From NCBI GenBank assembly GCA_951406725.2, contig OX597835.1, forward strand, positions 38,068,001 to 38,132,000: 64,000 nt of DNA. Direction: 5' to 3'. Of this stretch, positions 27,620 to 31,205 are shown piece by piece. Below the pieces are notes generated by a model, which was not told the DNA's origin, made no database searches, and worked only from the letters and a program-made list of their open reading frames with translations. A program made the position numbers and the translations under genes. This DNA is from Octopus vulgaris. Taxonomy: Eukaryota. Position 1 is the first letter of the stretch; every line of letters begins with the position of its first letter.

Positions 27620-27790
27620 GCTAGCTCCAAAAGTTTTTTTCATTCTCTCTCTGTTTATTTCATTGTTTTCATTTCTGTTGAACAGCATAGGCTCGAAACG
27701 GAAAACACTTCCTCACCTTCCTGAGTGTTAAATTAATACACCTGTTTGTCATTCGTACACCTGTCTTTGTCTTTTGTTTTCTGTAAATTT

Positions 27791-27797
<7 letters not shown>
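27620..27797 (+). mobile_element. PLE-LTR-like short element (family A) with a degenerate hammerhead
   Basis: TTTCTGTTGAACAGCATAGGCTCGAAACGG; homologous to 56040-56210 and 28984-29140. Confidence 0.7.
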
Positions 27798-27853
<56 letters not shown>

Positions 27854-27859
27854 CTATTT

Positions 27860-28444
27860 ATAACATTACATCAACACACAACCCCAGAAACAGTGATGCA
27901 TTCAACACTATTGTGCAAAATCTTCCTTTACTAACTAGAGATCCAACAATGAACATCCTGAAAACACACAAACTCATCAAATGCAAAAAAAAAACAAGAC
28001 AAGTCACTAAAGAGACTACTAACAAATGTGAAGCTTTACAAAACAACTATGAATCCAACAGTTGAAAAATGTGGACACCCAAACTGTGGAACCTGCTCCA
28101 ACCTACTTGAAGGCTCAGATTTTCACAATAAAAATAATTTCTCTTGTGCCTCTGAGAACCTAATTTATGTAATAACCTGCTCTGGTTGCGGACACAACTA
28201 TATTGGACCAACGAGTATGACCTTGAGAAAGAGAACAACTCTACATAAAGAGGAAATCCGTTTCCCACAATACATGCAAATTCCTCTCAGTGAACATATA
28301 AAAAAATGTGCAGATAACATCAAACCAAATTTCACAGTTTTCCCCTTCTACCAGTGCAAAGACTCAATATCTCCACAAGAACATTTAAATAAAGAAACTT
28401 TTTTCATTGAAAAATACAGAACAAATCTTAATATGCACGCATAA
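27860..28444 (+). mobile_element. Penelope-like element GIY-YIG endonuclease remnant
   Basis: CGHPNCGTC zinc-finger linker, C..ENLIYVITC..C...YIG.T...LRKR...H, LSEH, KE.FFI.KY...LN. Confidence 0.92.
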
Positions 28445-28542
28445 CCAACTTTTATCTTTTTACATATTTCAATTCACGATTACATCACTGTACATAAATC
28501 CCATCACTAAGCAAGGTTTTCGAAGCTTGTTTTTGTCTGTAC

Positions 28543-28573
<31 letters not shown>

Positions 28574-28652
28574 CACATATATACATACGTGTATATACAT
28601 CTCTATATATACATATATATATATCTGTAAATTAATATGTGACCATTATTCA

Positions 28653-28728
28653 ATAGCCAAGATAAAACTCTGAATTTCGGATGCTAAAGTGGAAATCCAC
28701 AACACCATCTCTTCGGTTATCTGGCCAT
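28653..28728 (-). ncRNA. Type I hammerhead ribozyme motif (CCGAAGA core)
   Basis: Minus strand: ATGGCCAGATAA-CCGAAGA-GATG..CATC-CGAAA-TTCAGAG-TT-TTATCTTGGCTAT; stem I is ~12 bp with one bulge. Confidence 0.6.
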
Positions 28729-28842
28729 CTGAAAAACCTGTATTTACATAATATTGAGATCTCTTTCTTTCTTTTGTTATCTTAGCGTTTTACCATATAT
28801 ATATATTTATATATACACATGTATATACATATATATATACAC

Positions 28843-28888
<46 letters not shown>

Positions 28889-28903
28889 GTATATACATGT
28901 ATA

Positions 28904-28943
<40 letters not shown>

Positions 28944-28945
28944 CA

Positions 28946-28983
<38 letters not shown>

Positions 28984-29140
28984 ACGGGAAGGTTTATGAA
29001 AATAGACAAAAGACGAAGGCAGGTGGAATACAAACAAGCAATTGTATTAGTGTGGTGCTCAGGAATATAAATAAAACAAGTCTTTTACGTTTCGAGCCTA
29101 CGCTCTTCAACAGAAAGATACTCAGAAAAGAAACACAGAA
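28984..29140 (-). mobile_element. Family A short element with a hammerhead-like motif at 29081-29118
   Basis: TCTTT-CTGTTGA-A-GAGC-GTAG-GCTC-GAAAC-GTA-AAAGA. Confidence 0.75.
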
Positions 29141-29144
29141 AGAA

Positions 29145-29194
<50 letters not shown>

Positions 29195-29338
29195 GCACAC
29201 ACTTATATGTATATAATTTAGAGAAAAACCAGTATTAAACAATTCAATAAAGAAAGATGTTAGTCATACTATATAGAATTATAGATATATACAATACGAA
29301 GTCGAGACAAATATCGCCAGCTGACCGGTGTCTGCTAC

Positions 29339-29383
29339 TCTAGGCCGATGAAGGACAATGATCCTGAAACACGTGTCCCTAGA
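29339..29383 (+). ncRNA. Minimal type I hammerhead ribozyme with palindromic stem III
   Basis: TCTAGG-CCGATGA-AGGA-CAATGA-TCCT-GAAA-CACGTG-TC^-CCTAGA; all three helices pair; predicted cleavage after C29377. Confidence 0.78.
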
Positions 29384-29546
29384 TGCAGCTCCGGCGGCCG
29401 GGGTGTTTGTCTCCCCTTCGTAAATGTATATAAGGACACAGGGAAAATGTGTCAAAGCCATCAGGAGGTGTCGATGCTTCCTAGGGCTATACAGCGGTGG
29501 TGTACCCCCCTACTGTCACGTTCGTTTTAGATTGACAGTATACAAC

Positions 29547-29579
<33 letters not shown>

Positions 29580-29586
<7 letters not shown>

Positions 29587-30900
29587 GGACACACCCATAC
29601 ATACATACATACATACACCTATACACACACGCCCACACACCTACATACACACACATGCATACACACACACACACGGACACACCCATACATGCTTACATAC
29701 ATACACCTATACACACACGCCTACACACCTACATACACACACATGCATACACACACACATGTACGCACATACACACACATACATACATATATAACTACAC
29801 ACATGCACACACACACAGACACATACGCACATGCATACGCATACATGCATACATGCATACACACACACACACACGTACACATACATACACACACACATAC
29901 ATACACCCATACACATACATGCATCCTACACACACAGACATACACACTCACACATACATACACACACACACTCACTCACACACCTGCATGTACGCGCATA
30001 CACATGCACCTACACACACTTCCACACACACACACGTACATACATACACACACACACACATACACACACACACACACACATGGACATACATCTATATACA
30101 CACACATACATACATTCATCGGACACACTGACACCCAGACTTACACAGACACACTCACACATCCACACACATACATACTTACACACACACTCGTAGGCGC
30201 GCGCACATACACGCTTGTGCACGTTCGCGCACGCATACACGCATGCATGCACCACGCTCGTGGTTTGACCGACTAGATCTCCTGTACGTATCTGGGGCCG
30301 GCGCGTGTCTTTGGGTTCTCCCACGCCTGTCGCCGCGGGACCACTCTTCCATCTTCCCCTCCCCCCCTCCGCTGCAGTTTTTTCCTTAACACCCCCTCTT
30401 TGTACACACACGCACACACATACACACACCCACTCACACACACACACTTGCATATATATATACATTACACTTACACACACTTCAAATTTACTTGCCATAC
30501 ACACAACTACGCACACTGGACACACTACCACTCTACACACACACTGGCACGTTACATACACCCCCACCCTTTCTCTCCTTCCCTTCTTCCCTCCTTCCTC
30601 CCTTTTTTTTACCACTGACCACTCACTCGAGACTTGCTATATCATCTGTTCGCCCTGCACGCACTAACATATACATATTTTTTGTTTTTTTATCTCGCCT
30701 CACACACACATACACACACGCACACGCACACACTCACACATACATACACACGCACACACACATACCTCCCTGTTTCTGATCTGCCTTTCTGACTTGCTAG
30801 GGTACCCCCACACACTCCTTTAATTCTACTACTGCCTGCTACTAGCCACTGTCCACCATACACACACATACACACACACGCACACACTCACACACACACC
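29580..30900. repeat. (CA)-rich degenerate microsatellite with a GC-rich insert at 30195-30400
   Basis: Directly visible. Confidence 0.9.
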
Positions 30901-30989
30901 CTCGTTTTCTCGCACACCTTTTTTACCATTCCCTCTTTGATTCAGCTCTCCTGTTTTTAAAAAACATTTTCCTCCTTTTTTACTACTTC

Positions 30990-31201
30990 CGTCTTTTCAG
31001 TATGTGACCTCGTGAAGACTACCTGCAATTTTTTTTCCTCTGTCCTCCCGTCTCGGGATCTTTCTTTCTCCTATCTTTCCGACGAAGAGCTCCGCTCGAA
31101 ACGTCATACCCTCCTTCTTCCATTTTCCTGAGCGCCTAATAATAATAATACTGTAATTGTTCCACGTGTTGTTGTTTTTTCTGTTTTCCCGTTTGGATTA
31201 A

Positions 31202-31205
<4 letters not shown>
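30990..31205 (+). mobile_element. PLE-LTR-like short element with a hammerhead-like motif at 31076-31110 and a (TA)n tail
   Basis: CCGACGA-A-GAGC-TCC-GCTC-GAAACGTC; the 3' part is also present at 26271-26352. Confidence 0.65.

What the first reader, a model, noticed from the sequence alone, without database searches (positions are those of the whole stretch)
27620..31205. Hotspot of Penelope-linked hammerhead elements in (TA)n
Within 3.6 kb lie a PLE GIY-YIG ORF remnant and five hammerhead or hammerhead-like motifs from at least four unrelated sequence families (27672, 28653 minus, 29081 minus, 29339, 31076), each unit bounded by (TA)n. Known: PLE pLTRs carry minimal type I hammerheads with palindromic stem III, and some PLEs favour simple repeats. 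Inference: a community of non-autonomous ribozyme retroelements nesting in and regenerating TA arrays.
Basis: partly seen in the sequence, partly recalled or inferred. Interest (0 to 1): 0.75.

Follow-up and report, generated by a model that had tools for sequence, protein, structure and literature searches.

The report
Penelope retroelement ends crowding TA repeats
Six separate pieces of Penelope-like jumping genes landed at different times in one TA-repeat-rich patch; they are mostly broken-off ends of protein-coding elements, and their hammerhead motifs carry altered core letters and likely do not cut the RNA that gets copied.

Summary
The motifs are real and genome-wide, but this is neither a special hotspot nor mainly a non-autonomous community. 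F and A are one lineage and D is related, so there are three unrelated hammerhead lineages, not four. A, D and B continue in longer copies into PLE ORFs of Neptune and Hydra type. The GIY-YIG remnant E has lost its own hammerhead. Only C (363-bp tandem unit) looks non-autonomous. In 880 kb of background there are 61 such units per Mb, mostly ending in (TA)n, and their clustering fits independent landing on TA arrays. What is unusual: no motif here has the canonical core. A6U is fixed (14,944 versus 158 copies), U4C marks B, C and D, A3-U8 marks E, and the young D family has a broken stem I. Copy 5' ends pile up just upstream of the hammerhead, not at its cut site. Cleavage is untested. This scan reported the same system earlier on other DNA. 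Verdict: new variant of a known kind.

The parts
27611..27790 (+). Unit F: old 3' end of an A-lineage PLE; decayed hammerhead, core CUGUUGA at 27675, stem III and G10.1 broken
   Evidence: 3674 candidates, relatives 85-88% identical
27797..27846 (.). (TA)25 array between the 3' end of F and the 5' end of E
27851..28545 (+). Unit E: 5'-truncated Neptune-type PLE (CX4CxxC linker, GIY-YIG remnant ending at 28444); stops about 100 nt after the stop codon and so lacks the family's own hammerhead (A3-U8 core)
28625..28738 (-). Unit B, forward arm: pLTR of a Hydra-type PLE; hammerhead core CCGAAGA (U4C) at 28716, predicted cut 28666/28665; ends at the proximal 3' site
28739..28795 (+). Unit B, inverted arm: 57 nt of the PLE tail ending at the distal 3' site
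28984..29150 (-). Unit A: 3' end of a Neptune-type PLE; hammerhead core CUGUUGA (A6U) at 29113, stem III ACGU, predicted cut 29086/29085
29204..29278 (.). Fragment of a further unidentified repeat (about 80% identical relatives, one inverted pair) directly 5' of C
29276..29552 (+). Unit C: part of a 363-bp tandem non-coding element; best-formed hammerhead, core CCGAUGA (U4C) at 29345, stem I 6 bp, stem III ACACGUGU, predicted cut 29377/29378
29581..31204 (+). Unit D: 5'-truncated, CA-rich 3' UTR and pLTR of a young PLE; hammerhead core CCGACGA (U4C) at 31079 with broken stem I
31204..31247 (.). (TA)22 array at the 3' end of D

Best explanation
The cluster is six separate insertions of abundant Penelope-like element families into one TA-rich patch, likely made by target-primed reverse transcription of mostly uncut RNA. 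Shown: family membership, links to ORFs for A, B, D and E, TA-bounded 3' ends, two alternative 3' ends in B and C, inverted 5' arms, different ages. Inferred from published PLE work: the GIY-YIG endonuclease with its cysteine linker nicks (TA)n, and the RT primes at two internal RNA sites, which yields tails and inversions. Inferred here: short units come from 5' truncation, or from priming close to an RNA 5' end that lies just upstream of the hammerhead. C would borrow a PLE enzyme that I did not identify. The altered-core hammerheads are predicted to be slow, protein-assisted or dead, and are not needed for copying.
For: A: L121 holds a 573-aa RT+GIY-YIG frame, UTR, hammerhead and the same 3' end. 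D: long copy L123 runs into a GIY-YIG C-terminus with 498 candidates. B: 6 of 30 core-anchored loci have PLE ORFs of 200 aa or more ending upstream of the motif, and tandem spacing is about 2.58 kb. (TA)4 follows the 3' end in A 11 of 13, D 11 of 14, F 6 of 7, B 4 of 8 background copies, against 5.3% of random points. C 3' ends: 27 at one site and 29 at a site 55 nt upstream, of 68 segments. B: 15 and 15 of 30 loci at two sites (read). C 5' starts: 10 of 68 within 6 nt upstream of the core (0.9 expected, p=3e-8), 2 of 68 within 4 nt of the cut. B genome-wide TA junctions: 29 just upstream of stem I, 5 at the cut, 4 at a neutral site. Null placement on TA arrays reproduces the clustering. Frangieh 2024 (PMC11167929) found two internal RT starts and uncut RNA as the main substrate in vitro.
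Against: No autonomous partner for C: no ORF adjoining a C unit in about 60 partly overlapping loci. C and B loci were chosen by motif or best match, which favours starts upstream of the core for C. 5' pile-ups may mark RT stalling or fold-back at stem I rather than the RNA end. In the A lineage N7 varies freely while U6 stays fixed, which suggests selection on the core and sits poorly with 'dead'. Ten of 49 background insertions have a neighbour within 100 nt, against 5.2 expected (p about 0.10), a hint of mild nesting. No RNA evidence was obtained.
Confidence: 0.8

Rival explanations
1. One reading: a community of non-autonomous ribozyme retroelements (retrozymes) that self-cleave, circularise, nest in each other's TA tails and regenerate the arrays.
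For: C is a 363-bp tandem non-coding unit whose dimer minimum-energy fold is the hammerhead dimer. 27 of 49 background insertions have TA on both sides. D's 3' TA runs are long.
Against: A, B, D and E link to ORFs. The 3' flanks of 58 A and D copies hold other units at 111 per Mb, against 120 per Mb after any long TA array (Fisher p=0.83). C copies rarely start at the cut site.
Confidence: 0.1
2. The variant cores are selected, working slow ribozymes that cut late or only with the PLE protein bound, for example to decap or retire the RNA after copying.
For: A6U in 14,944 against 158 copies with all four letters at N7 (44 U, 25 A, 20 C, 11 G in the first 100 listed). The 3-8 pair is kept as C-G, A-U or U-A. 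Stem I pair 4 covaries C-G/G-C/A-U. U4C keeps some activity in a viroid and A6C has low activity (PMC3088659). The PAc hammerhead is protein-assisted (PMC11167929). This rival is compatible with the best explanation's account of the cluster.
Against: Pairwise mutagenesis of a type III hammerhead found low activity for all CUGA-region changes except the C3G/G8C swap (PMC9901934). The A and D dimers fold preferentially into non-hammerhead structures (-15.9 against -28.4, and +1.5 against -22.3 kcal/mol). D spread recently with stem I broken in 28 of the 30 tabulated motifs.
Confidence: 0.35
3. The motifs are chance matches in AT-rich, low-complexity DNA.
For: No hammerhead among the 150 Rfam rows shown (301 lower rows not shown); cores are non-canonical.
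Against: Shuffle controls; five different palindromic stems III in unrelated families; fixed position in pLTRs downstream of PLE ORFs.
Confidence: 0.02

Closest known systems
Minimal type I hammerheads in pLTRs of metazoan PLEs (Cervera and de la Pena 2014, PMC4209133; parts 1-2 of 4 read)
   Same: Type I layout, palindromic helix III, extra base after A9, many families per genome, mostly solitary copies from truncated PLEs, low predicted activity.
   Different: That paper reports U3-A8 as the core variant; here A6U, U4C and A3-U8 are fixed in whole families, and one young family has lost stem I.
Hydra-clade PLEs, including Hydra-1_Obim (Craig et al. 2021, PMC8557442; passages, section 11 and supplement passages read)
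   Same: B has a C-terminal GIY-YIG, CxCX5C linker, CxxC and CxH motifs, no CCHH, a unit under 3 kb and (TA)n insertion; stem III has one central unpaired base, as in Hydra-1_Obim.
   Different: B is a distinct family (RT similar by eye only; my hammerhead search strings did not match its entry), and its core is U4C where Hydra-1_Obim is canonical.
Neptune-type PLEs (features as given in PMC8557442)
   Same: [quoted passage not shown]
   Different: No tree was built, so Nematis is not excluded; A and D carry long CT- or CA-rich 3' UTRs.
Metazoan non-LTR retrozymes (PMC7229834, passages; bioRxiv 10.64898/2026.07.22.740005, parts 1-2 of 5)
   Same: C is non-coding, tandem, 363 bp, with one type I hammerhead per unit.
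   Different: The C core is non-canonical, its copies have PLE tails and inversions, they start upstream of the core rather than at the cut, and circles are untested.
Anolis Poseidon PAc mechanism (Frangieh et al. 2024, PMC11167929; parts 1-2 of 4 read)
   Same: Two internal RT start sites defining a tail, AT-rich targets, uncut RNA as template.
   Different: PAc has a canonical core tested in vitro; the evidence here is genomic, from other clades and a non-coding element.

Membership tests
PLE minimal hammerhead | Type I three-helix layout | tested here: met
   A, B and C meet it; D has 1 bp of stem I and F is decayed
PLE minimal hammerhead | Palindromic helix III allowing a dimer | tested here: met
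   ACGU, ACACGUGU, ACUCAGAGU, ACCGGU; dimer MFE is the hammerhead for C and E, hammerhead-like for B, not for A and D
PLE minimal hammerhead | Canonical core CUGANGA...GAAA...UH | tested here: not met
   0 of 5 motifs; A6U 14,944 vs 158; U4C in B, C, D
PLE minimal hammerhead | Position in the pLTR downstream of an RT-EN ORF | tested here: met
   A, B, D, E family; not found for C
PLE minimal hammerhead | Helix covariation | tested here: inconclusive
   11 A/D-lineage copies: 1 of 12 pairs changes on both sides, covariation score reached by 1 of 500 shuffles, related sequences; unrelated families keep the helices with different letters
PLE minimal hammerhead | Self-cleavage as a dimer | not testable with these tools
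   needs a bench assay
Neptune-type PLE (A, D, E) | RT plus C-terminal GIY-YIG in one ORF | tested here: met
   L181 635 aa, L121 573 aa; for D only the GIY-YIG end was read
Neptune-type PLE (A, D, E) | CX2-5CxxC linker and CCHH motif | tested here: met
   read in L181 and L121 translations
Neptune-type PLE (A, D, E) | RT phylogeny with Neptune rather than Nematis | not tested
   no reference set could be brought into the tree tool
Hydra-clade PLE (B) | CxCX5C linker, CxxC and CxH around E and N, no CCHH | tested here: met
   L338, L340, L324 translations
Hydra-clade PLE (B) | Unit under 3 kb, (TA)n insertion | tested here: met
   2.58-kb tandem spacing (tandem itself not read); flanks
Hydra-clade PLE (B) | Canonical hammerhead | tested here: not met
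   core CCGAAGA; 3176 exact matches of the U4C 25-mer
Non-LTR retrozyme (C) | Non-coding tandem monomer of 170-400 nt with one hammerhead each | tested here: met
   363-bp period, tandem pairs
Non-LTR retrozyme (C) | Canonical type I hammerhead | tested here: not met
   U4C and A10.1-U11.1
Non-LTR retrozyme (C) | Cleaved monomers or circles as template | tested here: inconclusive
   2 of 68 segments start within 4 nt of the cut, 10 just upstream of the core; a circular template would leave no start mark, and circles cannot be tested here

The most novel reading that the evidence does not exclude
In these PLEs the hammerhead fold has been repurposed: the palindromic stem III pairs two RNA copies so that a dimeric RT-endonuclease can prime both target strands, which produces the two-armed insertions, while catalytic-core letters and even stem I drift. 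The ribozyme would then be an RNA dimerisation signal with little or no cutting.
Probability: 0.15. Interest if true: 0.75.

Novelty: new variant of a known kind. Interest (0 to 1): 0.35.

Why it matters
What hammerheads do in Penelope-like elements is called unclear in PMC8557442. This genome offers natural core variants fixed in thousands of recently mobile copies (A6U, U4C, A3-U8, lost stem I), with 5' ends indicating uncut templates. These are ready test substrates, and descriptors demanding CUGANGA would miss them. The cluster itself is ordinary for this genome.

Tried and rejected
Rfam scan: the 150 rows shown were microsatellite matches to miRNA models plus one weak viral UTR match; 301 rows were not shown, so it says nothing on hammerheads. 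The repeat finder was swamped by simple repeats. The hairpin 60 nt after E's stop codon was considered as E's hammerhead and rejected; the motif lies about 290 nt after the stop and is absent from the window copy. Expression: no RNA holder listed; four contig sets, two of them only guessed to be RNA, cover unit C but cannot show ends, strand or level. In one search the B reference included its TA tail; starts at +115 or later were dropped as TA artefacts (for anchored loci 37 of 64 segments starting at or before the cut were kept; for incidental copies 28 of 330). The second descriptor missed B and C because it demanded G10.1-C11.1. A splice-acceptor explanation of the 5' pile-up was considered (an AG precedes stem I in B and C); it is disfavoured by eye because the two B subfamilies start at the same place though their AG differs, and it is not excluded. 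The full 2.58-kb B tandem and full-length D copies were not read. Lunse et al. 2017 (PMC5785218) is not held (citation only) and may already list these core variants. Of its kind only the supplement of PMC8557442 was searched; other supplements may bear on novelty.

Full report
Setting. The window is G000:C22:38068001-38132000 in a 2.8-Gb genome. Its repeats look octopus-like; that label is recalled and comes from no call.

Observation. Five motifs have core position 3 at 27675(+) F, 28716(-) B, 29113(-) A, 29345(+) C and 31079(+) D. Their cores read CUGUUGA, CCGAAGA, CUGUUGA, CCGAUGA and CCGACGA, so none is canonical. In 88 evenly spaced 10-kb stretches a relaxed descriptor found 25 hits against 3-5 in shuffles, and a second one 21 against 0 and 0. 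F aligns with A, and A with D, above shuffle maxima; B and C align with nothing. That gives three unrelated lineages. Identity to the best other copies differs: F 85-88%, E up to 84% at protein level, B 84-93%, A 95-97%, C 94-99% in full-length matches, D 98-99%. The units therefore arrived at different times.

Link to autonomous elements. [quoted passage not shown] Its family hammerhead lies about 290 nt past the stop, has an A3-U8 core and stem III ACCGGU (359 pattern matches, 98 of the first 100 with A3-U8), and is missing from the window copy. A is the 3' end of another such element: L121 holds a 573-aa RT+GIY-YIG frame, a CT-rich UTR, the hammerhead and the same 3' end, with TA on both sides. 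D extends through about 3 kb of CA-rich UTR into a GIY-YIG C-terminus in L123, a piece with 498 candidates, the 40 scored being 96-100% identical. B lies downstream of ORFs with the Hydra motifs listed by Craig et al., has 3176 exact 25-mer matches and about 2.58-kb tandem spacing. It is related to, but not the same as, Hydra-1_Obim, whose hammerhead is canonical. C is a 363-bp tandem unit; about 60 partly overlapping loci gave one PLE ORF hit, not adjoining the unit. C has 64 exact matches to a core 34-mer and 580 to a downstream 26-mer.

Target and clustering. Background copies end in (TA)4 within about 20 nt in A 11 of 13, D 11 of 14, F 6 of 7 and B 4 of 8 cases, against 5.3% for random points; most B exceptions continue into the tail. 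(TA)n targeting is published for Hydra and Naiad, and microsatellite bias for Neptune. The families total 54 hits in 880 kb, about 170,000 by extrapolation. Six in 3.6 kb is far above a uniform Poisson rate, but TA arrays are themselves clustered. Placing 49 insertions on TA arrays at random gave 5 or more per 10 kb in 26-86% of runs, depending on weighting; one such stretch was observed. Neighbours within 300 or 1000 nt matched expectation; within 100 nt there were 10 against 5.2 (p about 0.10). Flanks of 58 A and D copies held no more units than flanks of other long TA arrays. TA runs after D copies are long (median 43 nt against 12), which fits either choice or extension of arrays.

Mechanistic marks. 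C segments end at two sites 55 nt apart (27 and 29 of 68); B loci end at two sites about 70 nt apart (15 and 15 of 30, read). The window's B copy is a two-armed insertion using both. This matches the PLE tail and the two internal RT starts of PAc. C 5' starts cluster 2-6 nt upstream of the core in 10 of 68 segments, five of them running one further full unit; 2 of 68 start within 4 nt of the cut. For B loci anchored downstream of the cut, 26 of 37 retained starts fall between -20 and +3 and 2 at the cut. Genome-wide TA junctions number 29 upstream of stem I, 5 at the cut and 4 at a neutral site. For incidental A/F copies, 0 of 41 start within 10 nt of the cut. The copied RNA is thus likely uncut, as shown in vitro for PAc. 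Caveats: motif-anchored sampling for C, and RT stalling at stem I as an alternative.

Are the ribozymes alive? For: A6U is fixed (14,944 against 158) while N7 takes all four letters; the 3-8 pair and the stem III palindrome are kept across unrelated families; one stem I pair covaries; C and E dimers fold best as hammerheads. Against: core changes lower activity; A and D prefer other folds; the young D family has a broken stem I. Untested.

Comparison and novelty. The system is a known kind: PLE pLTR hammerheads, retrozymes as PLE derivatives, (TA)n-targeting clades already recorded in Octopus. Searches for octopus with hammerhead ribozyme, for core variants with Penelope and in an octopus repeat annotation (passages; 0 occurrences of hammerhead) showed no report of these fixed variants, but only listings or passages were seen and Lunse et al. 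2017 could not be read. PMC6765202, PMC3088659, PMC9901934, PMC7229834 and PMC13282606 were seen as passages. Earlier notes of this scan describe the same system and the A6U core on other DNA; they are not independent support.

Verdict. Real, correctly tied to PLEs, ordinary as a cluster, modestly interesting for its fixed core variants and uncut-template signature.

Noticed in passing
window 56057-56207 (+): Another A-lineage PLE end with core CUGUAGA at 56087, ending in (TA)n; a B tail fragment appears just upstream (about 55980-56038, read by eye).
   Followed up: partly
window 57125-57172 (+): Hammerhead of a further family with U3-A8 core (UUGAAAA) and stem III AACCGGUU; the dimer folds as a hammerhead.
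   Followed up: partly
window 10396-10840 (+) and 53609-54133 (-): Two old Hydra-type GIY-YIG remnants, 28-40% identical to the B family ORF.
   Followed up: partly
window 27280-27478: Imperfect inverted repeat (69% over 190 nt) just left of the cluster, MITE-like; a related piece at 26221-26270.
   Followed up: no
window 29204-29278: Unidentified repeat with about 80% identical relatives, one as an inverted pair in L015.
   Followed up: no
L186 and relatives, E-family 3' UTR: A GTAAGT splice-donor-like site lies about 30 nt after the E hammerhead cut site, and acceptor-like AG sites precede stem I in B and C; possible PLE intron.
   Followed up: no
window 25149-25739 (+); 48151-48720 (-): LINE remnants: a zf-RVT hit and frames that look like the 3' end of another LINE RT (recalled resemblance).
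   Followed up: no
window 56564-56672 and 55773-55879: 95% identical 109-nt direct repeat containing GAAACACGTGT, the same stem III palindrome as unit C; no core assigned.
   Followed up: no
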